Source: Polyangiales bacterium (GTDB lineage Bacteria; Myxococcota_A; Polyangia; Polyangiales; Ga0077539). From it: a stretch of DNA of 64,000 nucleotides. Shown here piece by piece: positions 28,700-44,802 of the stretch (positions within the stretch are counted from its first letter, which is position 1; the number at the start of each line of letters is the position of its first letter). The position numbers and the translations under genes are program-made. Location of the stretch: positions 293,334-357,333 of the forward strand of contig JAXLYG010000005.1 in assembly GCA_046351535.1 (NCBI GenBank). The letters are read 5' to 3'. Under the pieces are notes generated by a model. That model was not told where the DNA came from, did not search any database, and worked only from the letters and a program-made list of their open reading frames with translations.

Positions 28700-30316
28700 T
28701 CAGCGCGCGATCCCGCGGTACGCGGTGATGAGCGAGAGGATCTCGTCGAGCGCCGTGTCGGGGCCCGTGCGCGCGGCGCGTACCGTGCGCTCCGTCGCGT
28801 CGAGGATGGCGTCCGACGACGAGGGGTTGTTCGCGATCTGCTTGAGCGCCTCGGCCCACGCGACGATGGCCCTGCCGCGGCGGAGCGCTTCGTCAGAGCC
28901 TTCGAGGAGCTGGCCGAAGGTCGTGTCGACGGTCTCGACGCCGGGGACGCGACCGCGCGTGGCGTAGGTGGCCCGCGCGACGATGTGGTCGCTCATGTCG
29001 ACGGTCGAGCCGAGGCACGACTGGATCACCTGGTGAAACACCATCGCGTCGTTGGGCGCGAGGTGCTGCGGGTCGATCACGCGCGGGTCGGCGGAGATGG
29101 CCTCGCCGTGGAACTCCGCGACGCGCATGTACCAGGGCAGCGTGAGCTCGAGGCGCACGGCGCGGACGGCGAGGTCCATGGTCTCGGTGAAGCGTCCGCC
29201 GAACATGATGTCGGCCTCGGCGTCGCTGTCGACGAAGACGTAGGCGCCGCGGCCCTTGTCGGTGACGGTGTCCATGAGGGTGTCGTTGAAGCCGTCGCCG
29301 ACGCCGACGGCCACGAGGTAGATCTCCTCGCGCTCGGCGAAGTGCGACGCCTCGGCGATGATGGTCTCGTCGGTCACGCCCACGTTGGCGATGCCGTCGG
29401 AGATGAGCACCACGCGGTTGAGCCGACCTTCGCCGTAGTTGCGCTGCGCGAGCGCGTAGCCCGCCGCGAGTCCGCCCGAGAGGTCCGTGCCGCCGCCCGC
29501 CACGAGGCTCGACGCGAGCGAGAGGAGCGTCGGATCGTTGGGTCCCGTGACGGGGTAGTTCGAGAGCGGCGCGCGCTGCTCGGTGTTCCACGTGACGGCG
29601 GAGACGACGTCGCCCGCGCGGAGCGACGACGCGATGGCGCGCACGACGGCGCGCTCGCGCTCGATGCGCTGGCCCTCGCCCATCGAGCCCGAGGTGTCGA
29701 GCACGAAGGTGATGTTCATCGGGCGGAGGTCTGCGGTGCTGCGGCGCTCCGACGCGATGCCCACCTGGAGCTCGTAGCTCCCCTCGGCGGTGCCCGGTCG
29801 CATCTGCGGCACGACGCGCACGTGATCGGGCGCCGCGGCCTCGTAGGGCACGTTGTAGTAGTTGAGGAACTCGTAGGTCCGCACGATCCCCGCGGGCACG
29901 CGCCGCCCGAGTCGGATCATCCGTCGGGCGATGGCCGGCGAGGCCATGGAGTTCGAATCGTCGGCCGAGAGGTAGAGCGTCACCGGCTCACGCGAAGGGA
30001 TCGCCTCGCACGCCACCCTCGCGTCGGCGGCGTCTGCCGCGTCGGGGCGATCCGCGGAGGCGTCGTACGGTGCGGGCACATCGGGGGATGAGGTCGCGTC
30101 GGTCCTCGCGGCGTCGGAGGGAGCCGCCGCGTCGAGGGGCGTGGGAGAGGGGCGATCGGAGGTCCCTGCGTCGTAGGGGGCGAAGCTCGTCGCGGACGCG
30201 TCGTAGACGCCTGCGTCGTACTCCTCCGACGAGACGTAGTCGCCCTCGGAGTCGCTGCACGCGTCGAGTCCGAGCCCGAATGCGACGAAGAGTGCGAGGT
30301 ACGAAAGCTTGCGCAT
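28700..30316 (-). CDS. VWA (von Willebrand factor A) domain lipoprotein
   Basis: Lipobox LGLDACSDS. MIDAS motif DTSGSM. A D/A/S/P-rich linker. ATG at 30316 preceded by GGAGG. Confidence 0.8.
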   Translation of the reverse strand: MRKLSYLALFVAFGLGLDACSDSEGDYVSSEEYDAGVYDASATSFAPYDAGTSDRPSPTPLDAAAPSDAARTDATSSPDVPAPYDASADRPDAADAADARVACEAIPSREPVTLYLSADDSNSMASPAIARRMIRLGRRVPAGIVRTYEFLNYYNVPYEAAAPDHVRVVPQMRPGTAEGSYELQVGIASERRSTADLRPMNITFVLDTSGSMGEGQRIERERAVVRAIASSLRAGDVVSAVTWNTEQRAPLSNYPVTGPNDPTLLSLASSLVAGGGTDLSGGLAAGYALAQRNYGEGRLNRVVLISDGIANVGVTDETIIAEASHFAEREEIYLVAVGVGDGFNDTLMDTVTDKGRGAYVFVDSDAEADIMFGGRFTETMDLAVRAVRLELTLPWYMRVAEFHGEAISADPRVIDPQHLAPNDAMVFHQVIQSCLGSTVDMSDHIVARATYATRGRVPGVETVDTTFGQLLEGSDEALRRGRAIVAWAEALKQIANNPSSSDAILDATERTVRAARTGPDTALDEILSLITAYRGIAR

Positions 30317-30752: not shown

Positions 30753-33677
30753 ATGGAACGCGGAACTACGAGAAGGATGCTCTACGGAGCAGCGCTGGTC
30801 GCGGCGATCGCGGCATGCGCCGGTGACCCCGGCGCCAACGGAACGAGCTGTACGGTCTCGGCGAATAGCGACGGAACCAGCACGATCCGATGCGGCGACG
30901 GGACGACGGCGACCATCCGCAACGGCGCGGACGGAGGCAACGGCACCAACGGCACCAACGGCACCAACGGCACCAACGGGACCAACGGGACCTCGTGCAC
31001 CGTGTCCGCGGACGATGCCGGGACGCGCACCATTTCGTGCACCGATGGCACGAGCGTCCAGGTGAGCAACGGGACCAACGGGACCTCGTGCACCATCACC
31101 ACGGATGCCGACTCGGGGGTTCGCACGATCCGCTGCGCCGACGGGACTAGCACCCGGATCAACGACGGCGCGCCCGGACTCTCGGCTCGCGTTCTCGACC
31201 ATCACGGCTCGCAGTACCTCGCGACGCACGGCGAGTACGCCAACGGCGCGAAGGTGCTCGGACGCGCGACGATCACGGCCGCCACGGCGGACGCCTCGGG
31301 CCGCGTGACGGTGAACTTCCGCGTGACCGACCAGGCCGGAAGGCCCCTCTCCGACGTCGGCGCCATCGCGGCGAACATCGTGAAGCTCGTCCCGGCGCGC
31401 ACCGGCGAGGCTTCGAACCACTGGGTCGCGTACATCTACCGCACGCAGACCGTGTCGGGCACGGGCTCGTGGCCGGCCCCCTCGGGCACCTCGGCGGTGC
31501 AGGCATACCGTGAGAACAACGGCATGCTCACGAACAACCGCGACGGCACGTACCAGTACGTCTTCGCGACGAACCTCTCGACGGCGATGATGGGCACCAC
31601 GCCCATCACGTACGAGCGCAACCGCACGCACCGCGTCTACATCTCGATGGGCGGTCATAGCGGCACGACGGCCGACGCGTACTTCGACTTCGTGCCCGAC
31701 GGCTCGGCGATCACCGAGCGCAGGGACATCGTGCAGACGGCGACCTGCCAGGGCTGCCACAACACGAACGAGTTCCACGGCCACGGCGGCGACCGCCTGA
31801 CCGTCGAGGGCTGCGGGACGTGTCACCTCCCCGGCAACGTCGACCCGCACAGCGGCCGCAGCCTCGACCTCCCCGAGATGATCCACAAGATCCATGCGGG
31901 CGGCGAGCTCCCCTCGGTGCGCGGCGCCGACGGCATCCTCTATGACGACCCCGCGACCACGGTGAACGAGGCGGCCGACAACGGCACCTACGCGATCTGG
32001 GGCAACGCCAACGCGCGCCAGTCGTGGGAGCACGTGGAGTTCCCCGCCGTTCTCGCGAACTGCACCACCTGCCACCGCGGAACCGGCGCGCAGGTCGACA
32101 ACTGGAACTCTCGTCCTTCGCGCGCCGCCTGCGGCTCGTGCCACGACAACCTCAACTTCGCGACGGGCACCAACCACGGCAACGCGACCCTGATGCCCGG
32201 ACCGCAGCCCGATGACGGCTCGTGCACCACCTGCCACCGCGCCACCGCGGGCATCGCCCCCATCGTCGCAGGCCACGACTTCGTGCGCTCGAACCCGCGG
32301 AACATCGCCGAGTTCAACGCGACGCTCTCGATGACGCCGCCGGCCAACGGTCGCTTCTACGTGGCCGGTGAGGCCCCCGTGGTGAGCATCGTGCTCCGCG
32401 ACGCCGTCACCGGCGCGCTCGTCGATCACACCACGCTCAACGAAGACCCCACGGCCGAAGGCTGCCCGACCACGTCGGCGACCTGCCCGCCCCGCGACGG
32501 CCTGCTCCGCACGGCGTCGCTCTTCGTTCAGGGCCCGCGCGCTCACCGCATGCCGGTGCTCACGACGGCCGCGCGCTCGCAGGTCATCGCCCCCGCGGCG
32601 GGCCCCTACAACCTCTCGGGCACCGGCGTCTCGCTCGTCGTGAAGTTCGACGGCGGCGACGACGTGCACACGGTGAACTCCACCGGCGGCGACGTGCTCC
32701 GCATGGGCCTCGTGACCGTTCCGATGACCACCACGGGCTTCGTGAGCGCGGCCGCCGCGACCACCGCCGAAGTGGTGGCGTGGCTCAATCGCGACGCGGC
32801 CTTCGCGGCGCGCGGCATCGCCTGGGATGAGGGCGGCAGGGTCGCCATCCGCAGCCGCAGCCTCGGCAACATCCACTCGGTGCAGCTCCTCGCGAGCGCC
32901 GCGACGACCGCGGTCTTCGGCGGCGACGTGACCGTGCACATGCCCGCGGGCTTCACGTCGGGCAACACCGTGAGCCGCCGCACGGTGGCCGCGAACAACG
33001 ACCCCAAGGCGTCGTGGAGCGCGGGCTCGATCAACTACCAGCTCGACGCCGTCGACGACCTCGAGCCGGGCACCTACGTGGTCTCCATCGAGTTCGCGGA
33101 CCGCGGCCGCGTCGACGCGGTCAACTACGTCACGCCGACCGTGGCGCGCCTGACCTTCCAGGTGAAGACCGCGACGGAGCAGCTCCTCGTCGCGGGCAAC
33201 TGCAACAGCTGCCACCAGAACGCGACGGGCACGGGCTTCGTGCTCGACTACTCGCGTCACAACAAGCAGTTCGACACGGCCGCGCTCGACCAGTGCGGCG
33301 CCTGCCACGACTACCAGCCCCAGGCCGCCACGGGCCTCGCATGGTCGGGCGCGCGCCCCATCTCTCGCCGCGTCCACGCGATCCACTACGGATCGTCGCT
33401 GACCTATCCGCTCGCGGACGTCGACTACTCGAACGGCGACCCGGTGCCCGGGCGCAACTGGAACATCACGTTCCCCCAGGACGTGCGCAACTGCCAGACC
33501 TGCCACCCGTCGAACACGACGAGCGGGACGTGGGCGACGCGTCCGGCGAGGCTGCCCTGCTCGGGCTGCCACGACGCCGACGCTGCGATGGCGCACATGC
33601 GCATCCAGACCTTCGACCCGACCCCTGCCGATCCGTGGAGCGGTGACGAGCAGGAGTCCTGTCAGACCTGCCACTGA
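30753..33677 (+). CDS. Decaheme c-type cytochrome lipoprotein (974 aa) with N-terminal Gly-X-Y (GTN)8 repeat and 3 Cys-pair modules
   Basis: Lipobox IAACAG. Ten CxxCH motifs (CQGCH, CGTCH, CTTCH, CGSCH, CTTCH, CNSCH, CGACH, CQTCH, CSGCH, CQTCH). RBS aggaga upstream of the ATG. Confidence 0.85.
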   Translation: MERGTTRRMLYGAALVAAIAACAGDPGANGTSCTVSANSDGTSTIRCGDGTTATIRNGADGGNGTNGTNGTNGTNGTNGTSCTVSADDAGTRTISCTDGTSVQVSNGTNGTSCTITTDADSGVRTIRCADGTSTRINDGAPGLSARVLDHHGSQYLATHGEYANGAKVLGRATITAATADASGRVTVNFRVTDQAGRPLSDVGAIAANIVKLVPARTGEASNHWVAYIYRTQTVSGTGSWPAPSGTSAVQAYRENNGMLTNNRDGTYQYVFATNLSTAMMGTTPITYERNRTHRVYISMGGHSGTTADAYFDFVPDGSAITERRDIVQTATCQGCHNTNEFHGHGGDRLTVEGCGTCHLPGNVDPHSGRSLDLPEMIHKIHAGGELPSVRGADGILYDDPATTVNEAADNGTYAIWGNANARQSWEHVEFPAVLANCTTCHRGTGAQVDNWNSRPSRAACGSCHDNLNFATGTNHGNATLMPGPQPDDGSCTTCHRATAGIAPIVAGHDFVRSNPRNIAEFNATLSMTPPANGRFYVAGEAPVVSIVLRDAVTGALVDHTTLNEDPTAEGCPTTSATCPPRDGLLRTASLFVQGPRAHRMPVLTTAARSQVIAPAAGPYNLSGTGVSLVVKFDGGDDVHTVNSTGGDVLRMGLVTVPMTTTGFVSAAAATTAEVVAWLNRDAAFAARGIAWDEGGRVAIRSRSLGNIHSVQLLASAATTAVFGGDVTVHMPAGFTSGNTVSRRTVAANNDPKASWSAGSINYQLDAVDDLEPGTYVVSIEFADRGRVDAVNYVTPTVARLTFQVKTATEQLLVAGNCNSCHQNATGTGFVLDYSRHNKQFDTAALDQCGACHDYQPQAATGLAWSGARPISRRVHAIHYGSSLTYPLADVDYSNGDPVPGRNWNITFPQDVRNCQTCHPSNTTSGTWATRPARLPCSGCHDADAAMAHMRIQTFDPTPADPWSGDEQESCQTCH

Positions 33678-33680
33678 GCC

Positions 33681-34562
33681 ATGAAGCACCTCGCCCTCGC
33701 TCCCCTCTTCGTCTGCGCGGCCTTGTCGCTCTCGTGCAAGGTCGCGCAGCCTCCTCCCGCCACGCCTCATCAACGCGTCGAGGGCGAGGTGATCGCCACG
33801 GTCAACGGGGTCCCGCTCACGCGCCAGGAGCTCCCTCCGAGCGCGCACGGGCAGGGGCCTCGCAGCGCGACGGGACCCGTCGACGCCGACCTCCTCTCAC
33901 GCCTCGTCGAGGACGAGGTGCTCGCGCAGTACGCCACCTCCACGGGTCTCGATCGCGACCCGACGTACCGCGCCGAGCTCGCCCGCGCCGAGGCCGGGTT
34001 CCGCGCGTGGCGGCGCGCGCAGCTCGTCGCCCTCGCCGATCGCGCGCAGTCAAACGGGCTCAACGTCACCGAGGCCGAGGCGCGGAGCTGGTACGAGACC
34101 CACACCGCGCGGGCGCGTGCCGAGGTTCGCGTCGCGCAGATCCTCGTTCGCGACGAGGCCACGGCCAACCAGCTCCTCGCGGAGCTCCGCGCGGGCGCGG
34201 CCTTCGATGACGTCGCCCGCAGGCTCGCGCCCCCGAGCGACGATCCCGCTGCGAAGCCCTGGGAGATGGGCCCGCTGCGCTGGCACCAGCTCCCCGACGC
34301 GTGGCGTGGCCCCGTCGACGCGCTCCAGGTCGGCCAGGTCTCCGCCGTGATCCGCGGACCCAACCGACGCTTCTGGATCGTGAAGCTCCTCGACCGTCGC
34401 GAGAACGCCTCGCTCACGTTCGAGACGACGCGTGACACGATCGTGCAGGTGCTCCGCGACGAGCGCGCCATCGAAGCGCGCGCGCGCCTCCGAGAGACGC
34501 TCCGCCGTGCGGCCCGCGTCGACGTCACCCCGCAGCGCCCCGCCCCCACCGAAACCCGCTGA
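33681..34562 (+). CDS. Parvulin-type peptidyl-prolyl cis-trans isomerase lipoprotein (SurA/PrsA-like)
   Basis: Lipobox LSLSCK. SurA-like N-terminal chaperone region. PpiC domain (EVRVAQILV...WEMGPLRWHQLPDAW...RFWIVK). Confidence 0.7.
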   Translation: MKHLALAPLFVCAALSLSCKVAQPPPATPHQRVEGEVIATVNGVPLTRQELPPSAHGQGPRSATGPVDADLLSRLVEDEVLAQYATSTGLDRDPTYRAELARAEAGFRAWRRAQLVALADRAQSNGLNVTEAEARSWYETHTARARAEVRVAQILVRDEATANQLLAELRAGAAFDDVARRLAPPSDDPAAKPWEMGPLRWHQLPDAWRGPVDALQVGQVSAVIRGPNRRFWIVKLLDRRENASLTFETTRDTIVQVLRDERAIEARARLRETLRRAARVDVTPQRPAPTETR

Positions 34563-34837: not shown

Positions 34838-36949
34838 ATGCAGATGACGGACGCACGACGTTGGGCGCTTGGGGTGATGCTCGTCGCGATGGTGGGATGC
34901 GGCGCGGACGGCGCTCCTGGCGAGCGCGGCCCTGCCGGTCCGGCCGGTGACGCTGGCGCGCAGGGGCCTCAGGGCGAGCGGGGCCCGCAGGGCGATCGCG
35001 GTCCGCAGGGCGAGCCCGGCGACGCGGCGGTGACCGTGGTGTCGGGGAGCTTCCCCGCCGCGGGGCTCACGCTGAACGTCCTCGACGCGACGGTGAGCGC
35101 CTCGGGCGCGGTGTCGGTGCACTTCAACCTCCGCGACGGGCGCTCGCAGGCCCTCACGCCGCGCGACACCGACCTCCTCGGCTTCATGGTGAGCGAGGTG
35201 GTGCTCGACGCGATGGGTCAGCCGCTGCGCTACCGCGCGCTCACGACCTGCCCCGCCGACGCGCCCCACGCCGACGTCCGTCAGTCGTGCATGGAGTGGG
35301 CGATGCGGAGCGGCGCGCTCGCGAGCGACCGCCTCACGCAGCGCGCGGACCTCTCGTGGGACTTCCGTCTCGCGACGGTGGTGCCCGCGTCGACGACGCC
35401 CACGCGCACGCTCTCGATCACCGCGCAGGGTCTCCGCCCCGGTCTGTATGCGTCGGACCCCGCCTCGGTCTCGACGGCGGTCTTCGACTTCGTGCCCGGC
35501 GGCGGCACGCCCGTCTCCGTTCGCGTGGTCGACCCCGCGGGCTGCGAGGGCTGCCACCAGACCGTGCGCGCGCACGGCGGCACCCGCGTCAACGCGACGA
35601 TGTGCGTCCGCTGCCACACCGACGAGCTCTCCGACCCCGACACCGGGAACAGCCTCAGCTTCGGCGTGATGGTTCACAAGATCCACCGCGGCGAGCACCT
35701 GCCGAGCGTCGTGGGCGGCGCGCCCTATCGCATCGTGGGGTACCGCGGCGCGGTCTCGGACTTCAGCGACGTCGCGTACCCGCAGGACCTCCGCAACTGC
35801 GAGTCGTGTCACCGCCCCACCACCGCGGCGCCGGACTCCGTTCGCTTCGCGCAGCGCCCCGCGGAGCGCATCTGCACGAGCTGCCACGACCGCACGTACT
35901 TCAGCGACGGCGCCTTGCCCACGGGCTACACGCGCCACCCGCCGGGGATGGTCGACCCGACGCAGTGCACGACCTGCCACCGCGAGACGGGCGGGCTCAG
36001 CGGCATCCGCGACAAGCACATGCTCCCGTGGCGTCGCCCCGGCGCGCCCACGATCGCGGCCACCATCGAGTCGGTGACGGGGCTCATCCCGAACACCGCG
36101 CCCACGGTGGAGTTCACCCTCCGCTCGCGTGAGGGCACGGCGATCACCGACCTCTCGGCGCTCTCTCGCCTGGGTTTTCTCATCAACGGCCCGACGGCGC
36201 CCGCGTACTCGCTGCCCGGCGTGGTGCTCCAGGCCACGGGGACCGCGGCGGTGGGCGTGACGACGAACCTCGGCGGCGGACGCTACCGCTGGGTGGCGCC
36301 CATGTCGGCCGCGCTGCCTGCGACCGCCTCGGGGACCTGGGCCATCGGCATCGAGGCGCAGCGCACCGAGACCCTCGCGGACATGACCACGTTCCGTCAC
36401 GGCGCGACCAACCCCGTCGCGTACTCGTCGGTGGCGGGCGGGCCCGTCGTGCGACGCCGTCAGGTCGTCGAGATCGCGCGCTGCAACAACTGCCACGGCC
36501 GCCTCGCGCTGCACGGGAACAATCGCATCGACAACCCCGAGTACTGCGTGATGTGCCACACGCCCACGGCGACCGACGTCTCGCAGCGTCCGTCGACGGC
36601 GGGCGCGCCGCAGAGCATCGACTTCGCGAACATGGTCCACCGGATCCACACGGGCGCGAACCTCCCGAGCGTGGCCGAGGGGCGGCCGTACGTGATCTAT
36701 GGCTTCGGCGGGTCGCGCAACGACTTCTCGAACGTGCGCTTCCCGCAGTCGCTCCTGAACTGCTCGGCGTGCCACGCCGACGGGACCACGACGACGCCCT
36801 CGGCGCGCGCCTGCACGGGCTGCCACGACAGCACCGCGACGATCGCGCACGCGCAGATCAACACCACCTCCGCGGGCGTCGAGTCCTGCGCGGCGTGCCA
36901 CGGCGCGGGGCGGACCTTCTCCGTCGCGACGTCGCACCCGGCGCCGTGA
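34838..36949 (+). CDS. Decaheme c-type cytochrome lipoprotein (703 aa) with N-terminal collagen-like Gly-X-Y repeat; paralog of 30753..33677
   Basis: Lipobox VGCGADG. (GPAGPAGDAGAQGPQGERGPQGDRGPQGEPGD) is 11 consecutive Gly-X-Y triplets. Ten CxxCH motifs. Shares the ...CxxCH...HKIH...LPSV... blocks with the upstream cytochrome. Confidence 0.85.
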   Translation: MQMTDARRWALGVMLVAMVGCGADGAPGERGPAGPAGDAGAQGPQGERGPQGDRGPQGEPGDAAVTVVSGSFPAAGLTLNVLDATVSASGAVSVHFNLRDGRSQALTPRDTDLLGFMVSEVVLDAMGQPLRYRALTTCPADAPHADVRQSCMEWAMRSGALASDRLTQRADLSWDFRLATVVPASTTPTRTLSITAQGLRPGLYASDPASVSTAVFDFVPGGGTPVSVRVVDPAGCEGCHQTVRAHGGTRVNATMCVRCHTDELSDPDTGNSLSFGVMVHKIHRGEHLPSVVGGAPYRIVGYRGAVSDFSDVAYPQDLRNCESCHRPTTAAPDSVRFAQRPAERICTSCHDRTYFSDGALPTGYTRHPPGMVDPTQCTTCHRETGGLSGIRDKHMLPWRRPGAPTIAATIESVTGLIPNTAPTVEFTLRSREGTAITDLSALSRLGFLINGPTAPAYSLPGVVLQATGTAAVGVTTNLGGGRYRWVAPMSAALPATASGTWAIGIEAQRTETLADMTTFRHGATNPVAYSSVAGGPVVRRRQVVEIARCNNCHGRLALHGNNRIDNPEYCVMCHTPTATDVSQRPSTAGAPQSIDFANMVHRIHTGANLPSVAEGRPYVIYGFGGSRNDFSNVRFPQSLLNCSACHADGTTTTPSARACTGCHDSTATIAHAQINTTSAGVESCAACHGAGRTFSVATSHPAP

Positions 36950-36960
36950 AGGGGGATGCC

Positions 36961-37503
36961 GTGACGGTCTTCACCACCCACGCGCGCGTCGCAGCGGTCC
37001 TCGCGCTCTCCCTCACGGGCTGCGCCGATCGGCCTCGCGAGATGCGTCCCCCGCCCGACGGGGGCGCGGTGACGGTGATGCCGCGCGTGCCTCACCTCGC
37101 GACGTACCCGTGCATGCAGCGCTGCCACAACGACCGCGCGCCGAACCCCACGCCGCGGGAGATGCGCGAGTTCCACACGGGCCGCGTGCTCCGTCACGGT
37201 CCGACGATTCGCAACTGCGACTTCTGCCACCCCTCGGGCGAGCTCGATCACCTGAGGCTCATCAACGGCGACGCGGTCTCGTTCAACGAGTCGTATCGCC
37301 TCTGCGGCCAGTGCCACGGCGAGAAGCTCCGCGACTGGGAGCACGGCGTCCACGGCTCGCAGTCGGGCTCGTGGGCGGGCGCGAGGCTCCGCCGCGCGTG
37401 CACGGTCTGCCACGACCCGCACGCGCCGCAGCGCCCGCAGTTCGACCCCATCCCGCCGCCGCAACGAGACCGCGCATTCCCCGCTGGAGGACATCACCCG
37501 TGA
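36961..37503 (+). CDS. Small tetraheme cytochrome c lipoprotein (NrfB/c3-like)
   Basis: Lipobox LSLTGCAD. Heme motifs CMQRCH (CX3CH), CDFCH, CGQCH, CTVCH. The GTG start was chosen after a GGGGGA RBS; 36946 is an alternative. Confidence 0.7.
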   Translation: MTVFTTHARVAAVLALSLTGCADRPREMRPPPDGGAVTVMPRVPHLATYPCMQRCHNDRAPNPTPREMREFHTGRVLRHGPTIRNCDFCHPSGELDHLRLINGDAVSFNESYRLCGQCHGEKLRDWEHGVHGSQSGSWAGARLRRACTVCHDPHAPQRPQFDPIPPPQRDRAFPAGGHHP

Positions 37504-38435
37504 GCGAGCACGACGACCCCGAGATCGTAGAGGCGCTCGAGCGAGCGAAGGTCACCCGGCGACGCTTTCTCGCCACCGTGGGCGCCGCCTCGGCCGCCGC
37601 CTGCGCGTCGGGATGCAGCGGCGGCGGCAGCGCCCGCTCCGCGGCCTGGGAGGAGTTCTTTCAGCAGCACTACAAGCGCCTCTCCGACGAGGACAAGCGC
37701 GCCATCTTCGCGCGCCTCGAGGAGAAGGTGCGGCGCAGCCACGGCGTGCGGGTGCACATCTCCGACCCCGCGCCGATGCAGGGCGTCGAGTACGGCTACG
37801 CGCTCAACCTCTCGGCCTGCGTGGGCTGCCGCCGCTGCGAGTACGCGTGCGTGGCGGAGAACAACCAGTCGCGCGATCCCGAGATCCACTACATCAAGAT
37901 CCTTCAGATGGAGAAGGGCTCGATGGACGTCGAGCGCTCGGAGACCCAGTACGAGGGGCCCGTGCCGAGCGAGGGGCACTTCTACATGCCCGTGCAGTGC
38001 CACCAGTGCCGCGAGGCGCCCTGCGTGAAGGCCTGCCCGGTGAACGCCACGTGGACCGAGCCCGACGGGATCACCGTCGTCGACTACAACTGGTGCATCG
38101 GGTGCCGCTACTGCGAGGCCGCGTGCCCGTACTTCGCGCGGCGCTTCAACTTCGCCGAGGGCGACATCAGGCCCTCGGAGATCAACCCCGACCAGGGCTA
38201 CCTCTCGAACCGGCTGAGGCCCGCGGGCGTGGTCGAGAAGTGCACCTTCTGTCTCCACCGCGTGCGGCGGGGAGAGTATCCGGCGTGCCTCGAGGCCTGT
38301 CCGACGGGGGCGCGCAAGTTCGGCAACCTCCTCGATCCGACGAGCGAGGTCCGCCAGGTCATCGACACGAAGCGCGTCTACGTGCTCCACGAAGAGGCCG
38401 GCACGCTGCCGCGCTTCTATTACTTCTTCGACTGA
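37500..38435 (+). CDS. Tat-exported 4x[4Fe-4S] ferredoxin-type subunit (NrfC/PsrB/HybA-like)
   Basis: Twin-arginine signal (TRRRFLATVGAA). Four Cys clusters (CVGCRRCEYAC...CP; CHQCREAPCVKACP; CIGCRYCEAACP; CTFC...CLEACP). GTG start overlaps the upstream stop. Confidence 0.8.
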   Translation: MSEHDDPEIVEALERAKVTRRRFLATVGAASAAACASGCSGGGSARSAAWEEFFQQHYKRLSDEDKRAIFARLEEKVRRSHGVRVHISDPAPMQGVEYGYALNLSACVGCRRCEYACVAENNQSRDPEIHYIKILQMEKGSMDVERSETQYEGPVPSEGHFYMPVQCHQCREAPCVKACPVNATWTEPDGITVVDYNWCIGCRYCEAACPYFARRFNFAEGDIRPSEINPDQGYLSNRLRPAGVVEKCTFCLHRVRRGEYPACLEACPTGARKFGNLLDPTSEVRQVIDTKRVYVLHEEAGTLPRFYYFFD

Positions 38436-38448
38436 GGGGAATGGCGCG

Positions 38449-39699
38449 ATGGGCTCGGTGGCGATGCACGTGCGTGAGCTGTTCGCGTTTGTGAAGGCCT
38501 CGGCGGTCGAGGTCGCGCGCGGCAGCCGCGGGTACTACCGCTGGCTGGCGTTCCTGACGGCGCTGGTGGTCCTCGGCGGCCTCGCGTGGGCGCAGCAGCT
38601 CATGCGCGGGATGACCGTCACGGCGATGACCGACCAGGTCCCGTGGGGGGCCTACATCGCGAACTTCTCGTTCACCGTGGGCCTCGCGTCCGCGGCGCTC
38701 GTGATGGTCGCGCTGGCGTACATCCGTCACGACGAGCGGGCCGCCGAGCTCGTCATCGTGGGGCAGGTGATGGCCATCGCCGCGCTCACGATGGGGATGC
38801 TCTTCGTCGTCGTCGACATCGGCCGCCCCGACCGCGCGTGGCACCTCATGCCGGGCCTCGGGCGCTTCAACTTCCCCATCTCGATGCTGTCGTGGGACGT
38901 GGTCGTCCTCAACGGCTACCTGCTGCTGAACTTCTACCTCGCGACGTACACCCTCCTCGCGCGCTTCCGCGGTAGGCCCATCGACAAGAAGAAGTATCGC
39001 CCCGTGCTCGGCGCCGCGATGGTGTGGGCCGTGTCGATCCACGTGGTCGCCGCGTTCCTCTACTGCGGCCTCGCGGGCAGGCCCCACTGGCACGCCGCGG
39101 TGCTCGCGCCTCGCGTCGTCGCCTCGGCCTTCGGCAGCGGCCCCGCGATGCTCATCATCGTGCTCACGGTCATCCGCGACCGCATGAACGCCCCCGTGCG
39201 CGACGAGACCATCGGGCTCCTCCGCGGGATCGTCACGGCGGCCGTGTACGCCAACCTCTTCCTCCTCGGCGCCGAGCTCTTCACCGAGCTCTACGGCGGC
39301 TCGGTGCACTCGGCGCCGCTGCGCTACCTGCTCTTCGGGCTCCACGGTCACCACCTGCTCGTGCCGTACATGTGGCTCTCGATCGTGCTCGATCTCTTCT
39401 CGGCGACGGTGTTCTCGCTGCCGGGCCTCTTCAACCGCAAGCGCGTGCTCCTCACCGCGTGCGGCACGACCATCGTCGGCATGTGGATCGAGAAGGGCAT
39501 GGGCCACGTCATCCCGGGCTTCATTCCGAGCTCCCTCGGCGAGATCGTCGAGTACAGCCCGTCGCTCACCGAGACGCTCGTCTGCGCGGGCGTGTGGGCC
39601 GCGGGCGGGCTCGTGCTCACCCTGATGCTCAAGGTCGCGATCCCCGTCGAGTTCCACGGGCTCCGCATCGATCGCCCCGAGGCGGGAGGTGCGTCGTGA
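38449..39699 (+). CDS. NrfD/PsrC-family integral membrane quinol-interacting subunit
   Basis: 416 aa with about 10 TM helices. Its size and position after an NrfC-like gene are typical of NrfD/PsrC/ActC. Confidence 0.75.
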   Translation: MGSVAMHVRELFAFVKASAVEVARGSRGYYRWLAFLTALVVLGGLAWAQQLMRGMTVTAMTDQVPWGAYIANFSFTVGLASAALVMVALAYIRHDERAAELVIVGQVMAIAALTMGMLFVVVDIGRPDRAWHLMPGLGRFNFPISMLSWDVVVLNGYLLLNFYLATYTLLARFRGRPIDKKKYRPVLGAAMVWAVSIHVVAAFLYCGLAGRPHWHAAVLAPRVVASAFGSGPAMLIIVLTVIRDRMNAPVRDETIGLLRGIVTAAVYANLFLLGAELFTELYGGSVHSAPLRYLLFGLHGHHLLVPYMWLSIVLDLFSATVFSLPGLFNRKRVLLTACGTTIVGMWIEKGMGHVIPGFIPSSLGEIVEYSPSLTETLVCAGVWAAGGLVLTLMLKVAIPVEFHGLRIDRPEAGGAS

Positions 39700-40346
39700 G
39701 GCGCTTCTTCTTCGGGCTCGCGCTCGCGGTCACCGCGTCGTGCCAGAGCCCCACGCCCACGACGAACGTCGGCGCCGACACGCTCGACCTCGGGCTCACG
39801 CCCGCGGGCGCGGTCTCGGGCGAGCTCGACGGCGCGCGCTTCACGCTGCGTGAGGCGTGGTTCCGCGTCGATCGCAGGGAGCCGCGCGCGCGCGTCGACC
39901 TCATCCTCTCGGAGGGGCGCGCCACACGGCTCTGCGCCACGTCCGATCCGCCGCACGCGCGGCACATCCTCGTGCGCGTCCCGCGCGCGCAGTCGCTCGC
40001 CGTGGGGACCCTGCGTGGCGCGCCGGGCGCCGAGACGCCGGTCTCCGCGAACTTCGAGACCCACGCGTCGGACCACTGGGTCGGGCGACCCGGGAGCGTC
40101 GCCATCGCGATCGACACCTCGACGCCGACGCTCGTCACCGGGCGCATCCGCGCGTGCTTCGGCCCCGGCGCAGAGGGCTGCGTGGCGGGCGCCTTTCAGG
40201 CTCGTCAGTGCGTGACCGAGCTCGACCTCGACGGCCCGCTCACCGGGAACGTGCGCCCCTCGACGGACGACGCGGGCGCGCCCGCCGCCGCCCCCGCCGC
40301 AGGACACGCAGTGCCGCCGACCGAGCACGGAGGCGCGTCGCCGTGA
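39696..40346 (+). CDS. Lipoprotein of unknown function, within the cytochrome operon
   Basis: GTG start after a GGGAGG RBS, overlapping the upstream stop. Lipobox VTASCQS. Confidence 0.5.
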   Translation: MRRFFFGLALAVTASCQSPTPTTNVGADTLDLGLTPAGAVSGELDGARFTLREAWFRVDRREPRARVDLILSEGRATRLCATSDPPHARHILVRVPRAQSLAVGTLRGAPGAETPVSANFETHASDHWVGRPGSVAIAIDTSTPTLVTGRIRACFGPGAEGCVAGAFQARQCVTELDLDGPLTGNVRPSTDDAGAPAAAPAAGHAVPPTEHGGASP

Positions 40347-41926
40347 AGTCTCCAAGGCGTGAGAGAGGGGCTTCGAAGGGCGCTGCCGCGGCGCGCGTCG
40401 CGGGCGTCCTCGCGCTCACGTTGCAGGGCTGCGCCGACGTGCGCGAGACCCCCACGGTCGCCACGCCCGACTGGGAGCTCGACCTGCGCCCCGCGCTCAC
40501 CGCCGCCTGCGCCCGCTGCCACGACGGCGACACCCCCGCGGGTGACTGGGCCGTCAGCCGCTACACCGACGCCGTCTCGTGCTTCGAATCGCTCGACGGC
40601 GGCGTGGGCGTGAGCGTCGCCAATCGACTACGTCGCGCGCTCGGTCGCGACGACCACGCGTCGTACTTCAACGCCGCGCTCCGACGCAGCATCGACGCGT
40701 GGATCACTGGAGGCGCGAGGCCCCGCCGCGGATCGATGCACGAGGGCGGCTTCGTCGACCCGCGCTCCCCGTACTTTCACGGCCGACTGCTCCGCGCGTC
40801 TCGCTGGGCGCAGATGCTCGACGGCACCCGTCAGGACGCCTGCGGACGCTGTCACGACGGCACGCCCTCGCGTCCGAGCACCGTGCGAGAGGGCGCTCCC
40901 GCGGCGGGCGCGACGCCCTGCACCGCGTGTCACACCGCGACCGCGGGCGTGCTCGACTGCTCGACCTGCCACGGCGAGGGCGGACGCGTCTGGCCCGGAC
41001 CGACCTGCCGCATGCTCCCCGCCACGCACGGCGACGCGCACGCGCGACACGTGCTCCCGGGCGCGGCGCTGCTTCAGCCCCTCGCGTGCGCGACCTGTCA
41101 CCCCGCGCGCGACACCAACCTCGCGACGGGCTCGCACGGCGACGGCACCATCGACGTCCGCTTCGACACCGCGATCGTCGGCGCCACGGCGCGCTACGAC
41201 GCGGCCAGCGGGTCGTGCACCGTCTCGTGCCACAGCGCCGACGCGATGAGCCCCACGCCGCACTGGCGCACGCCGTCGTCGGGCCCCACCTGCGCGGGCT
41301 GTCACGGCGCCCCCCCGGCGGGCCACTGGACGCAGCCCTGCACCACCTGTCACTTCGAAGCCAACGCGACGGGTACCGCGCTCGCGCGCGCCGCGCTGCA
41401 CCTCAACGGCCGCGTCGACTTCGGCGACGGCACCAACAACTGCGGCTCGTGCCACGGCAGCAACGGCGACCCGTGGCCGCGCGACGCGACCCACCAGGCC
41501 CACCGCAACGCCAGCGTCACCACGCCGGTGACCTGCGACGAGTGCCACGAGGTCCCCGCCACGATCACCGCCGCGGGGCACCTCGACGATCGCGGCGCGG
41601 GCGACCTGCGCTTCGGCGCGAGGGCGACCGCGCGCGGCGCGAGGCCGTCGTACGTGAGCGGCTCGTGCGTCTCGGTCGCGTGTCACGGCGAGAACCTCAT
41701 CGGGCGCTCCGGCGTGCGCATCGCGTGGCGCGGCGGCTCCGTTGCGGGCAACTGCGTCGGATGTCACGGCGCGCCGCCCGCGCTGCCCCACTCGAACAAC
41801 GGCTCGTGTGAGCTCGTGCTGTGTCACGGCTCCGAGGTCGAGCGCGTCGACGGCGCGCTGCGGATCATCGCGTCTCAGCGCGCCTCGCACATCAACGGCG
41901 TCGTGACCGCGGGGGGTGCGCGATGA
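40343..41926 (+). CDS. 13-heme c-type cytochrome lipoprotein of the Geobacter CX(3-4)CH...CXXCH type
   Basis: Lipobox LTLQGCAD. Ten CxxCH motifs plus CTVSCH (CX3CH), CVSVACH and CELVLCH (CX4CH). GTGA overlap with the upstream gene. Confidence 0.8.
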   Translation: MKSPRRERGASKGAAAARVAGVLALTLQGCADVRETPTVATPDWELDLRPALTAACARCHDGDTPAGDWAVSRYTDAVSCFESLDGGVGVSVANRLRRALGRDDHASYFNAALRRSIDAWITGGARPRRGSMHEGGFVDPRSPYFHGRLLRASRWAQMLDGTRQDACGRCHDGTPSRPSTVREGAPAAGATPCTACHTATAGVLDCSTCHGEGGRVWPGPTCRMLPATHGDAHARHVLPGAALLQPLACATCHPARDTNLATGSHGDGTIDVRFDTAIVGATARYDAASGSCTVSCHSADAMSPTPHWRTPSSGPTCAGCHGAPPAGHWTQPCTTCHFEANATGTALARAALHLNGRVDFGDGTNNCGSCHGSNGDPWPRDATHQAHRNASVTTPVTCDECHEVPATITAAGHLDDRGAGDLRFGARATARGARPSYVSGSCVSVACHGENLIGRSGVRIAWRGGSVAGNCVGCHGAPPALPHSNNGSCELVLCHGSEVERVDGALRIIASQRASHINGVVTAGGAR

Positions 41927-44346: not shown

Positions 44347-44802
44347 ATGAGCGATCAACAGCGACCCCCGGACCCGAAGCGTCGAAGGCTCCTCGACGGC
44401 GCGCTCGTGGTCGCCTCCTGCGCGGCGGGCGTGTCGGCGGCGTTGCCCGCCGTGCGCTTCGCCACACCCCCGTCGGATGGGGCGACGGGAGCCTCCGCGT
44501 CGGTGCGCCGCACTGAGGTGCTCGCCGCGGGGTCGAAGCTCGTCGAGGTCGCGGGCGACGTGGTGCTCGTGGTCGCGGTGGGCGGCGAGCTCCGCGCCTT
44601 CTCCGCGCGCTGCACGCACCTCGGGTGCACGGTGCGCTACGCCCGCGCCACGGGCGAGATCGAGTGTCCGTGTCACGGCGGCCGCTTCGCCGTCGACGGG
44701 CGGGTGATCGCGGGGCCGCCTCCCGCGCCGCTCCACGAGTACGAGGTGACCGTCGCGGGCGACGACGTCGTGATCGAACGGAGGCGCGCATGGACCGGGT
44801 GA
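44347..44802 (+). CDS. Rieske [2Fe-2S] protein with Tat signal
   Basis: RRRLLDGALVVA twin-arginine signal. CTHLGC ... CPCHGG Rieske boxes. Confidence 0.9.
   Translation: MSDQQRPPDPKRRRLLDGALVVASCAAGVSAALPAVRFATPPSDGATGASASVRRTEVLAAGSKLVEVAGDVVLVVAVGGELRAFSARCTHLGCTVRYARATGEIECPCHGGRFAVDGRVIAGPPPAPLHEYEVTVAGDDVVIERRRAWTG

What the first reader, a model, noticed from the sequence alone, without database searches (positions are those of the whole stretch)
34883..34990. Collagen-like Gly-X-Y triple-helix-type repeat at the N-terminus of a decaheme cytochrome, mirrored by (GTN)8 in its paralog at 30886-31000
Right after the lipobox Cys the protein reads GPAGPAGDAGAQGPQGERGPQGDRGPQGEPGD, which is 11 uninterrupted Gly-X-Y triplets rich in Pro and Gln. 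The paralogous cytochrome instead has NGADGGNGTNGTNGTNGTNGTNGTS, also Gly at every third position. A collagen-like stalk on a surface lipoprotein cytochrome could trimerise the protein or hold the heme domain away from the membrane. That would be an unusual way to present an extracellular electron-transfer protein. Alternatively, the N-G-T repeats could be glycosylation sequons.
Basis: partly seen in the sequence, partly recalled or inferred. Interest (0 to 1): 0.6.

Follow-up and report, generated by a model that had tools for sequence, protein, structure and literature searches.

The report
Collagen-like stalk on lipoprotein decaheme cytochromes
Two surface-type ten-heme cytochromes of a myxobacterium are tied to their lipid anchor by collagen-like Gly-X-Y stalks that hundreds of relatives share; this points to an undescribed way of holding electron-transfer proteins off the membrane, but whether the stalk forms a true triple helix is untested.

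Summary
ORF B (34838-36949, +) is an OmcA/MtrC-family decaheme lipoprotein. Directly after lipobox Cys21 it carries 14, not 11, uninterrupted Gly-X-Y triplets (nt 34901-35026). Pfam Collagen (PF01391) accepts this segment above its curated threshold.

It is not strain-specific slippage. Of 107 full-length homologs (Myxococcota, some Chloroflexi), 105 have 4-25 triplets at the same place. Gly is 96-100% conserved at every third column while X and Y vary. Shewanella OmcA and MtrF carry a 5-6-triplet version there, so this is an expanded ancestral tether. Close relatives differ by in-frame 18-nt units (14, 16 and 18 triplets).

Paralog A (30753-33677) is different. Its stalk has three Cys-pair modules of the "collagen-flanked surface repeat" type (PF19079/TIGR04203), joined by Gly-X-Y linkers. 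The (GTN)5 tract is a recent 9-nt slippage array. It has no PF01391 hit and low triple-helix propensity. Asn swaps freely with Asp in homologs, which weakens the glycosylation idea.

The AlphaFold2 monomer model places both stalks outside the globular heme fold. Most likely they are extended spacers between lipid anchor and heme domain. Trimerisation is plausible for B (about 45%) but untested. I found no paper describing this fusion. It is a new variant of known kinds, of moderate interest.

The parts
34838..36949 (+). Gene B: OmcA/MtrC-family decaheme c-type cytochrome lipoprotein (703 aa)
   Evidence: TIGR03507 scores 350 bits against a cut-off of 209. PF22113 is found twice. There are 10 CxxCH motifs. 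The AlphaFold2 model has mean pLDDT 90, and Foldseek matches OmcA 4lmh at E=5.6e-28, plus UndA, MtrC and MtrF.
34838..34900 (+). Signal peptide with lipobox M-V-G-C; Cys21 (34898-34900) is the predicted lipidated N-terminus
   Evidence: Read directly from the sequence. Cys21 is invariant in the 80-sequence alignment A2. Homologs show classical lipoboxes such as LAAC and LSGC.
34901..35026 (+). Collagen-like segment: 14 uninterrupted Gly-X-Y triplets (aa 22-63)
   Evidence: PF01391 scores 31.3 bits, above the gathering score of 27.2. It also gives weak hits to the Scl1, Scl2 and Lcl collagen regions. Every third column is 96-100% Gly across 80 homologs. The AlphaFold2 monomer model shows coil with pLDDT 39-61.
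34955..35015 (+). 18-nt tandem-repeat part of the collagen-like segment (GERGPQ-type units, 3.4 copies, 81% matches); site of length variation
   Evidence: Detected by Tandem Repeats Finder. The 88%-identical locus L002 carries one extra in-frame 18-nt unit here.
35045..36946 (+). Globular four-domain decaheme body of B (about aa 70-703)
   Evidence: The AlphaFold2 blocks from aa 71 onward are nearly all at pLDDT 89-98, with the first beta strand at aa 78. Foldseek TM-scores to OmcA, MtrC and MtrF are about 0.6.
30753..33677 (+). Gene A: paralogous OmcA/MtrC-family decaheme lipoprotein (974 aa), lipobox Cys22 at 30816-30818
   Evidence: TIGR03507 scores 299 bits. There are 10 CxxCH motifs. It is 28-32% identical to B. 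Cys22 is invariant in alignment A1.
30822..31178 (+). N-terminal stalk of A (aa 24-142): Gly-X-Y x3, module 1 (C33-N57), Gly-X-Y x8, module 2 (C82-N106), Gly-X-Y x2, module 3 (C113-N137), then DGAPG
   Evidence: Read from the sequence. AlphaFold2 models each module as three short beta strands (pLDDT 56-70) and the linkers at pLDDT below 50. The modules are homologous to CFSR/TIGR04203 repeats: phmmer links them to P0247 at E=3.7e-39, and P0247 scores 80 bits on TIGR04203 and E=1.4e-13 on PF19079.
30924..30995 (+). Linker 1 of A: GAD GGN (GTN)5 GTS, 8 triplets; a 9-nt slippage array
   Evidence: Tandem Repeats Finder gives CAACGGCAC x6.1 at 97%. Pfam reports no PF01391 hit for A. In homologs this linker ranges from 3 to 11 triplets with different sequences.
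33681..34562 (+). PpiC/parvulin-type peptidyl-prolyl isomerase lipoprotein between the two cytochrome genes; a conserved partner of A-type genes, whose role in the stalk story is unproven
   Evidence: PF13145 Rotamase_2, E=2e-13. The same gene pair is found in L005, L006 and L002.

Best explanation
Residues 22-63 of cytochrome B are a true collagen-like (Gly-X-Y)14 segment kept by selection. They form the tether between the lipid-modified Cys21 and the globular decaheme body. The segment is the expanded form of a short Gly-X-Y tether that belongs to the OmcA/MtrC family as a whole. It changes length by in-frame gain and loss of 9- or 18-nt units.

Its job is to act as an extended stalk. Fully extended, as a polyproline-II chain or a triple helix, it would be about 12 nm long (42 residues at about 0.29 nm each; inferred). 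That would hold the heme domain away from the membrane surface, for example beyond lipopolysaccharide or matrix, toward minerals or partner cytochromes.

Only a triple helix is known to require Gly at every third residue without exception. I therefore think it moderately likely (about 45%) that three lipoprotein chains wind into a short homotrimeric helix that starts at the membrane anchor. This step is inferred, not shown.

Paralog A uses a related but distinct stalk: three small disulfide-type beta modules (collagen-flanked surface repeats) strung on Gly-X-Y linkers. Its (GTN)5 tract is one hypervariable linker of that stalk.
For: Shown:
- PF01391 hits aa 22-62 above the curated threshold.
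- Of the 120 best homologs, 105 have 4-25 triplets (median 11), usually starting 0-1 residue after the lipobox Cys. Of the 15 without, 13 are N-terminally truncated gene calls.
- In an 80-sequence alignment at 33-69% identity, every third column over aa 25-61 is 96-100% Gly, and the X and Y columns hold at most 5% Gly and are variable.
- The 105 homologs hold 1336 triplets in uninterrupted runs, and 78% of the triplets within a protein are distinct. The periodicity is therefore not just recent DNA amplification.
- Composition is that of triple-helix formers: X is Pro 40%, Asp 13%, Ala 11%, Glu 10%; Y is Pro 29%, Ala 23%, Gln 10%.
- B's own triplets (GPQ, GER, GDR, GPA) score a mean of 38.8 on the host-guest scale, where GPO is 47.3 (scale values recalled from memory).
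- Close relatives have 14, 16 and 18 triplets and differ by whole in-frame units.
- Shewanella OmcA (GSDGKDGEDGKPGVVGVN) and MtrF (GSDGDDGSPGEPGKP) align to the same position.
- In the AlphaFold2 monomer model the segment lies outside the confident globular fold, which starts near aa 70.
- Other lipoproteins in the same window use other kinds of tether: DA-rich, TP/TD-rich or PPP. The Gly-X-Y tether is therefore specific to the cytochromes.
- For A, stalks of 0-4 CFSR modules plus Gly-X-Y linkers, or Gly-X-Y alone, occur across 97 homologs.

Inferred: the membrane-proximal triplets are the most Pro-rich and the most conserved (consensus C-E-GPA-GPx-GPx). That would suit helix nucleation at the anchor.
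Against: - No trimerisation domain was found next to the segment, and OmcA/MtrC proteins are not known to be trimers (established knowledge).
- Fourteen triplets without hydroxyproline is short. Bacterial collagens shown to fold, such as Scl2 (Tm about 36 C, PMC8968730), are several times longer and have a trimerisation domain.
- The AlphaFold2 monomer model gives only low-confidence coil. That is uninformative, not negative.
- Cell-surface location is inferred from the family, not shown for this organism.
- Part of the segment is repetitive DNA, so mutation bias contributes to the pattern.
- A's linkers fail PF01391 and have low predicted helix propensity.
Confidence: 0.72

Rival explanations
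1. The segment is only a flexible or polyproline-II-like monomeric tether. The Gly-X-Y periodicity is a by-product of slippage of 9- and 18-nt units, with weak selection for a Gly/Pro-rich, protease-resistant, non-folding linker. No triple helix ever forms.
For: - Part of B's segment, and all of A's (GTN)5, is tandem-repeat DNA.
- Length varies between close relatives by whole units.
- No trimerisation domain was detected, and the monomer model shows coil.
- The Shewanella versions have only 5-6 triplets, too short for a stable helix.
- About 67 of the 760 residues of OmcA 4lmh and about 76 of the 669 of MtrF 3pmq are not modelled in the crystals (lengths). This is consistent with a disordered N-terminus.
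Against: - The 105 homologs hold 1336 triplets in uninterrupted runs (4-25, median 11, per protein), although 78% of the triplets within a protein are distinct. Gly columns are 96-100% conserved at 33-69% overall identity.
- A linker without a packing constraint should accumulate Gly substitutions and out-of-phase indels.
- The X/Y composition matches triple-helix formers.
Confidence: 0.35
2. The N-G-T repeats of paralog A, and possibly Thr or Asn in other stalks, are glycosylation sites. The repeat exists to carry glycans.
For: (GTN)5 creates five overlapping N-G-T sequons. GTN is the commonest triplet in A-family stalks, 94 of 1067. Collagen-like BclA of Bacillus is glycosylated (PMC8968730).
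Against: - Across homologs the Y position is Asp 24% against Asn 22%. GTD, GAD, GQD and GAA replace GTN freely, so Asn is not conserved.
- The sequon has no acidic residue at position -2, which PglB-type enzymes need (established knowledge).
- No N-glycosylation system is known to me in Myxococcota, and none was looked for here.
- B's segment has no sequon at all.
Confidence: 0.07
3. The conserved post-lipobox motif (C-E-G-P-A-G-P...) and the Gly-X-Y run are mainly a sorting or export signal that directs the lipoprotein to the cell surface.
For: The first two or three triplets after the Cys are the best-conserved part of the segment. Residues just after the lipidated Cys are sorting determinants in other bacteria (established knowledge).
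Against: - A signal would not need 6-25 triplets of variable length and sequence.
- In Shewanella, MtrF lacking residues 22-182 is still secreted by the type II system (PMC6929479).
- The window's own B lacks the CEGPAGP consensus; it reads C-GAD-GAP.
Confidence: 0.1

Closest known systems
Shewanella outer-membrane decaheme cytochromes OmcA, MtrC and MtrF (TIGR03507; PDB 4lmh, 4lm8, 3pmq)
   Same: Same family by HMM and by fold. They share ten CxxCH motifs and an N-terminal lipobox. OmcA and MtrF also have a short Gly-X-Y run (6 and 5 triplets) at the same place, between the lipidated Cys and domain I.
   Different: The run here is 14 triplets (up to 25 in relatives) and passes the collagen HMM. 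No MtrA or MtrB homolog was recognised in the cluster. The neighbours are instead DsrO/DsrP-like (NrfC/NrfD-type) proteins, Rieske/cytochrome b, other multihemes and an unassigned 445-aa secreted protein.
Bacterial collagen-like surface proteins (Streptococcus Scl1/Scl2, Bacillus BclA, Legionella Lcl, Burkholderia Bucl8)
   Same: They share an uninterrupted Gly-X-Y region without hydroxyproline, Pro-rich at X and polar or charged elsewhere. In these proteins the region acts as a stalk that projects a functional domain from the cell surface, and its length varies by repeat-unit changes (PMC8968730). Weak HMM hits to the collagen regions of Scl1, Scl2 and Lcl were found.
   Different: Those proteins have much longer collagen regions, each with a dedicated trimerisation or trimeric domain, and their triple helices have been shown by experiment. 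Here the stalk is short, is anchored by a lipid at its N-terminus, and carries a redox enzyme not known to trimerise. All whole-protein scores to those families are far below cut-off (31 against 325 bits), so this is not a member.
Collagen-flanked surface repeat proteins (Pfam PF19079 CFSR / TIGR04203)
   Same: Paralog A's stalk alternates Gly-X-Y linkers with modules of about 25-30 aa containing two Cys (SCTV..DGT.TI.C.DGT..I.NG). It finds 977 representative proteins with the same architecture. The best hits are bona fide CFSR/TIGR04203 proteins.
   Different: The window's own modules score below the curated cut-offs (TIGR04203 20-24 bits against 60; PF19079 not reported). Most CFSR proteins are not cytochromes.
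Geobacter PgcA, a lipoprotein triheme cytochrome with (Pro-Thr-x)n repeats (PMC5732950)
   Same: It is an extracellular lipoprotein multiheme cytochrome in which low-complexity Pro-rich tandem repeats act as tethers or spacers around the heme domains.
   Different: The repeats are PTx, not Gly-X-Y. They lie between the heme motifs rather than between the anchor and the body. Circular dichroism showed no unusual secondary structure. The cytochrome family is unrelated.

Membership tests
Collagen triple-helix repeat proteins (Pfam PF01391; bacterial collagen-like proteins) | Uninterrupted (Gly-X-Y)n run | tested here: met
   B has 14 triplets at aa 22-63. A has 8 triplets at aa 58-81, plus shorter runs.
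Collagen triple-helix repeat proteins (Pfam PF01391; bacterial collagen-like proteins) | PF01391 HMM score above the gathering threshold | tested here: met
   B scores 31.3 bits against 27.2, E=1.7e-7. Paralog A gives no PF01391 hit at E<=1, so this is met for B only.
Collagen triple-helix repeat proteins (Pfam PF01391; bacterial collagen-like proteins) | X/Y composition compatible with a stable triple helix (Pro at X; Pro, Gln, Arg or Ala at Y; charged residues) | tested here: met
   In the B family, X is Pro 40%, Asp 13%, Glu 10% and Y is Pro 29%, Ala 23%, Gln 10%. B's mean host-guest score is 38.8 (scale recalled from memory). A's GTN triplets score 19.2, so this is not met for A.
Collagen triple-helix repeat proteins (Pfam PF01391; bacterial collagen-like proteins) | Adjacent trimerisation or registration domain | tested here: inconclusive
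   Pfam and NCBIfam recognise no such domain. The flanks are a lipidated Cys and an OmcA-like beta-barrel domain. The membrane anchor might substitute for one, but this is not testable here.
Collagen triple-helix repeat proteins (Pfam PF01391; bacterial collagen-like proteins) | Actual homotrimeric triple helix (circular dichroism at 220-225 nm, cooperative melting, protease resistance) | not testable with these tools
   Only monomer AlphaFold2 was available. It gave coil with pLDDT 39-61.
OmcA/MtrC family decaheme c-type cytochromes (TIGR03507) | Family HMM above the curated cut-off | tested here: met
   B scores 349.9 bits and A scores 298.7 bits against a cut-off of 209.3.
OmcA/MtrC family decaheme c-type cytochromes (TIGR03507) | Ten CxxCH heme-binding motifs | tested here: met
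   There are 10 in each protein. All are invariant in alignments A1 and A2.
OmcA/MtrC family decaheme c-type cytochromes (TIGR03507) | Four-domain fold of OmcA, MtrC and MtrF | tested here: met
   The model of B has pLDDT 90. Foldseek gives 4lmh at E=5.6e-28, and 3ucp, 6qyc, 4lm8 and 3pmq between E=1e-20 and 1e-26, with TM about 0.6. The fold of A was not searched.
OmcA/MtrC family decaheme c-type cytochromes (TIGR03507) | Lipoprotein signal peptide | tested here: met
   The lipoboxes are MVGC (B) and IAAC (A). The Cys is invariant in both alignments.
OmcA/MtrC family decaheme c-type cytochromes (TIGR03507) | Cell-surface exposure and docking on an MtrAB-type porin-cytochrome module | not testable with these tools
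   No MtrA or MtrB family hit was found among the neighbours scanned. An unassigned 445-aa secreted protein at 41923-43260 is a candidate barrel only.
Collagen-flanked surface repeat (PF19079 / TIGR04203), for paralog A | Repeat HMM above the curated cut-off | tested here: not met
   On the window's own sequence TIGR04203 scores 20-24 bits against 60, and PF19079 is not reported. Homology is supported indirectly: phmmer links it to P0247 at E=3.7e-39, and P0247 scores 80 bits on TIGR04203. PF19079 hits also occur in A-family homologs such as P0144.
Collagen-flanked surface repeat (PF19079 / TIGR04203), for paralog A | Tandem two-Cys modules of about 30 aa flanked by Gly-X-Y runs, in a secreted or surface protein | tested here: met
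   There are three modules (C33-C47, C82-C96, C113-C128), flanked by 3, 8 and 2 triplets, after a lipobox. Each module is modelled as three beta strands.
Bacterial N-glycosylation sequon arrays (PglB type) | D/E-X-N-X-S/T sequon with conserved Asn | tested here: not met
   In the window's (GTN)5 tract the -2 residue is Gly (G-T-N-G-T), so the acidic residue is missing. Asn alternates with Asp at the same position in homologs: 22% against 24%.

The most novel reading that the evidence does not exclude
Three copies of the lipoprotein wind their N-terminal Gly-X-Y segments into a membrane-anchored collagen triple helix. The nine acyl chains would set the register. The result would be a stalk of about 12 nm carrying a 30-heme head above the outer membrane. 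This would be the first use of a collagen triple helix in a respiratory or extracellular electron-transfer machine. By extension, the short Gly-X-Y tether of Shewanella OmcA and MtrF would be a vestige or minimal form of the same device. Stalk length, tuned by repeat slippage (6-25 triplets), would then set the reach of the cytochrome beyond lipopolysaccharide or matrix.
Probability: 0.4. Interest if true: 0.72.

Novelty: new variant of a known kind. Interest (0 to 1): 0.48.

Why it matters
Outer-surface multiheme cytochromes are the contact points between bacteria and minerals or electrodes. How far they stand from the membrane, and whether they cluster, governs electron hopping and reach.

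A collagen-like stalk that is kept by selection and tunable in length, on hundreds of OmcA/MtrC homologs from Myxococcota and Chloroflexi, suggests that spacing, and perhaps trimeric clustering, is a designed property of these proteins. It also draws attention to the overlooked Gly-X-Y tether of the Shewanella model proteins.

It offers a natural template for "cytochrome on a stick" constructs in bioelectronics. It would also be a new functional context for bacterial collagens, which so far are known mainly as adhesins and spore filaments.

If the stalk is only a flexible tether, the finding is a modest annotation point.

Tried and rejected
- **Chance or compositional artefact.** Rejected. The one-phase probability is 5.7e-11, and the coding frame is supported by GC3 of 0.94.
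- **Other Gly-X-Y runs in the window (6557-6835, + strand).** Rejected as the antisense reading of the real minus-strand gene 5561-6982.
- **Strain-specific slippage.** Rejected for B, because the feature is family-wide. It is true only of the exact (GTN)5 tract of A.
- **PPIase as collagen-folding helper.** The neighbouring PPIase gene is a conserved partner of A-type genes, but A's stalk is Pro-poor. A distant B-type locus (L003) has no PPIase. No support, so this was demoted to a side note.
- **Literature.** Eight full-text searches combined collagen or collagen-like with multiheme, decaheme, OmcA, Myxococcota, extracellular electron transfer, lipoprotein, or CFSR. None found a description of this fusion. 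Absence from this library is not proof of absence.
- **Trimer prediction.** Not possible. Only monomer AlphaFold2 was offered, and foreign or concatenated sequences are not accepted.
- **Genome-collection scan.** It returned only two loci, MAGs of Polyangiales and Myxococcota. The source organism is therefore placed only as Myxococcota, probably Polyangiales-like.
- **Host-guest stability numbers.** They use scale values recalled from memory and are only a relative guide.
Full report
**1. Observation**

The window has 72.4% G+C. ORF B is 34838-36949 (+), 703 aa, with GC3 of 0.94. It begins MQMTDARRWALGVMLVAMVGC. Directly after Cys21 it reads GAD GAP GER GPA GPA GDA GAQ GPQ GER GPQ GDR GPQ GEP GDA.

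That is 14 uninterrupted Gly-X-Y triplets, aa 22-63, nt 34901-35026. The probability that the 14 Gly of a 42-residue stretch all fall in one phase is 5.7e-11.

ORF A is 30753-33677 (+), 974 aa, with lipobox Cys22. It contains GAD GGN (GTN)5 GTS at nt 30924-30995. That is eight triplets, of which five are GTN, not eight.

Both proteins have ten CxxCH motifs. Both pass the OmcA/MtrC decaheme model TIGR03507 at 350 and 299 bits against a cut-off of 209. They are distant paralogs, 28-32% identical. The other Gly-X-Y runs in the six-frame scan (6557-6835, + strand) are the antisense reading of a real minus-strand gene.

**2.

Yes. Pfam Collagen (PF01391) matches aa 22-62 with 31.3 bits against a gathering score of 27.2, E=1.7e-7. 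The collagen regions of the Scl1, Scl2 and Lcl models give weak local hits, far below whole-protein cut-offs.

Paralog A gets no PF01391 hit.

At the DNA level only the second half of B's segment is repetitive: an 18-nt unit, 3.4 copies, 81% matches, at 34955-35015. A's tract is a nearly perfect 9-nt array: CAACGGCAC x6.1, 97%.

**3. Is it strain-specific?**

No. A search of 5.8 billion proteins gave 665 homologs of B. Many of the best 120 carry a precomputed PF01391 hit. Reading their N-termini gave the following:
- 105 of 120 have at least 4 triplets (range 4-25, median 11).
- The run usually starts 0-1 residue after the lipobox Cys, with consensus ..AAC-E-GPA-GPx-G...
- Of the 15 without a run, 13 are N-terminally truncated gene calls that start inside domain I.
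- Only two homologs have a signal peptide and no Gly-X-Y run.

In an 80-sequence alignment at 33-69% identity to B, each third column over aa 25-61 is 96-100% Gly. X and Y columns hold at most 5% Gly and are variable. The 105 homologs hold 1336 triplets in uninterrupted runs, and 78% of the triplets within a protein are distinct. The periodicity is therefore maintained by selection on Gly, not only produced by recent amplification.

Source names place the homologs in Polyangiales, Kofleriaceae, other Myxococcota and some Chloroflexi MAGs.

Two genome loci show length change by whole units:
- L002, a Myxococcota MAG at 88% identity, has 16 triplets.
- L001, a Polyangiales MAG at 71% identity, has 18 triplets.
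- The window and L002 differ by one in-frame 18-nt unit.

**4. Relation to the model proteins**

A sequence search of the PDB aligns B's last triplets with two Shewanella proteins at the same position, between the lipobox and domain I:
- OmcA 4lmh: GSDGKDGEDGKPGVVGVN, six triplets.
- MtrF 3pmq: GSDGDDGSPGEPGKP, five triplets.

The segment is therefore an expansion of a tether that belongs to the whole family. From memory, not tested here, MtrC of S. oneidensis has a similar CGGSDGNNGNDGSDG.

In Shewanella, MtrF lacking residues 22-182 is still secreted through the type II system (PMC6929479). The tether is therefore not the export signal there.

**5. Structure**

AlphaFold2 with the family alignment gives a confident model of B, with mean pLDDT 90 and pTM 0.83. 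The globular fold starts near aa 70. Residues 1-67 are coil at pLDDT 39-61. This is what a monomer model of a tether or a triple-helix segment would look like, so it is uninformative about trimerisation.

Foldseek against the PDB returns OmcA (E=5.6e-28), UndA, MtrC and MtrF, with TM about 0.6.

Fully extended, 42 residues at about 0.29 nm each would span about 12 nm (inference).

**6. Triple-helix propensity**

Family composition is X = Pro 40%, Asp 13%, Ala 11%, Glu 10% and Y = Pro 29%, Ala 23%, Gln 10%. Pro is also the commonest X residue in bacterial collagens (PMC8968730).

I used the host-guest Tm scale, with values recalled from memory and therefore approximate:
- B's triplets average 38.8, where GPO is 47.3.
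- The family averages 36.4 +/- 2.0.
- GTN scores 19.2.

B therefore has helix-competent triplets and A's linker does not.

Against a stable helix:
- Fourteen triplets without hydroxyproline is short.
- No trimerisation domain was found.
- OmcA/MtrC proteins are not known trimers.
- Proven bacterial collagens are longer and have such domains (PMC8968730).

For a helix:
- Only the triple helix is known to demand Gly at every third residue without exception.
- The most conserved and Pro-rich triplets sit next to the lipid anchor. The anchor could concentrate and register three chains (inference).

**7. Paralog A**

Its N-terminus (aa 24-142) runs as follows:
- Gly-X-Y x3
- module 1 (C33-N57)
- Gly-X-Y x8
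- module 2 (C82-N106)
- Gly-X-Y x2
- module 3 (C113-N137)

AlphaFold2 models each module as three short beta strands (pLDDT 56-70) and the linkers at pLDDT below 50.

Among 97 A-family homologs with a recognisable stalk, 0-4 modules occur (44 have three). Longest linkers range from 3 to 24 triplets. Some homologs have Gly-X-Y only and then hit PF01391.

A full HMMER scan with aa 22-159 found 977 representative proteins at E<=0.001. Most are non-cytochrome lipoproteins with up to 12 module copies alternating with Gly-X-Y. Top hits are bona fide members of Pfam PF19079 ("Collagen-flanked surface repeat") and TIGR04203. For example, P0247 scores 80 bits against a cut-off of 60. The window's own modules score below cut-off, at 20-24 bits.

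Linker 1 varies from 3 to 11 triplets in close homologs and has different sequences. For example, the 83%-identical P0121 has GQN GSN GGN GMN GSN GTD GRS. The (GTN)5 tract is thus a recent homogenisation of a hypervariable linker.

**8. Glycosylation idea**

In A-family stalks the Y position is Asp 24%, Asn 22%, Ala 14% and Ser 12%. The top triplets are GTN 94, GTD 62, GPA 50 and GAD 49. Asn is therefore not conserved. The G-T-N-G-T context also lacks the acidic -2 residue of PglB-type sequons. B has no sequon. I rate this low, about 7%, but it is not excluded.

**9. Context**

The gene order is:
- VWA lipoprotein (minus strand)
- A
- PpiC-type PPIase lipoprotein
- B
- four-heme lipoprotein (36955-37503)
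- DsrO-like FeS protein
- DsrP/NrfD-like membrane protein
- multiheme (40340-41926)
- unassigned 445-aa secreted protein (41923-43260)
- triheme-type cytochrome
- Rieske protein
- cytochrome b
- multiheme (45799-47031)

The B-side cluster is conserved around a 49%-identical homolog (L003). This fits a trans-envelope electron conduit, but surface exposure is inferred from the family only.

The other lipoproteins here use non-Gly-X-Y tethers. The collagen-like tether is therefore specific to the cytochromes.

**10. Comparison and novelty**

B is a member of the OmcA/MtrC family; all tested features are met. It contains a PF01391-positive segment. It is not a member of the Scl, Lcl or BclA families.

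It works most like the collagen stalks of bacterial surface proteins, and like the repeat tethers of Geobacter PgcA (PMC5732950).

Eight full-text searches found no description of a collagen-like segment on OmcA/MtrC cytochromes. Databases already hold the automatic PF01391 hits.

I class this as a new variant of known kinds. My estimates:
- About 0.85 that the segment is a selected spacer.
- About 0.45 that it forms a triple helix.
- Overall interest 0.48, rising to about 0.7 if trimeric 30-heme heads on collagen stalks are shown.

Noticed in passing
window 33681-34562 (+); L005 10889-11818; L006 10863-11732; L002 713-1594: A PpiC/parvulin-type PPIase lipoprotein gene (PF13145) directly follows the A-type decaheme gene. 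The pair is conserved in genomes whose A-type protein is only 55-59% identical, outside the B cluster. It may be a dedicated folding helper for the A-type cytochrome. A's stalk is Pro-poor, so a link to collagen folding is not supported.
   Followed up: partly
window 41923-43260 (+); L003 19165-20502: A 445-aa protein with a signal peptide has no Pfam or NCBIfam hit. A called gene of the same length, also without a Pfam hit, sits at the same position between multiheme cytochrome genes in L003. I judged its sequence by eye, without a test, to look like alternating beta strands. It is a candidate outer-membrane barrel of a porin-cytochrome conduit with no similarity to MtrB.
   Followed up: partly
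window 36955-39699 (+) and 44347-45815 (+): Two quinol-linked modules sit in one cluster with at least five multiheme cytochromes. One is a four-heme lipoprotein plus a DsrO-like FeS protein (160 bits, below the cut-off of 200) plus a DsrP-like NrfD protein (350.7 bits against a cut-off of 350). The other is a Rieske protein plus cytochrome b. The Chloroflexi-like homolog locus L004 instead pairs the collagen-stalk cytochrome with a molybdopterin oxidoreductase, an FeS protein and an NrfD protein.
   Followed up: partly
window 6557-6835 (+ frames), gene 5561-6982 (-): Long Gly-X-Y-looking runs (GTSGVT..., GRDGHV...) appear on the + strand. They are the antisense reading of a minus-strand lipoprotein gene with a TP/TD-rich repeat (DTPVT...). 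This is a trap for collagen scans in high-GC genomes.
   Followed up: yes
homologs P0034-P0120 (alignment A2, columns for aa 21-33): The motif C-E-G-P-A-G-P directly after the lipobox is conserved in homologs that are only about 35% identical overall. The window's own B lacks it and reads C-GAD-GAP. It could be a helix-nucleation site or a lipoprotein-sorting determinant.
   Followed up: no
P0241-P0390, e.g. P0265, P0246, P0256: The Cys-pair module plus Gly-X-Y stalk is widespread, with 977 representative clusters. It is fused to very different heads, such as an SRCR domain in P0265 and a 2716-aa protein, P0246. Some hits (P0256, P0259, P0264, P0268) share a different N-terminal motif and module spacing and may come from another phylum. 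The stalk looks like a general modular surface-display device.
   Followed up: partly
window 28700-30313 (-): A divergently transcribed VWA-domain lipoprotein has a long Asp/Ala/Pro-rich low-complexity tether after its lipobox. Its role next to the cytochrome genes is unknown.
   Followed up: no
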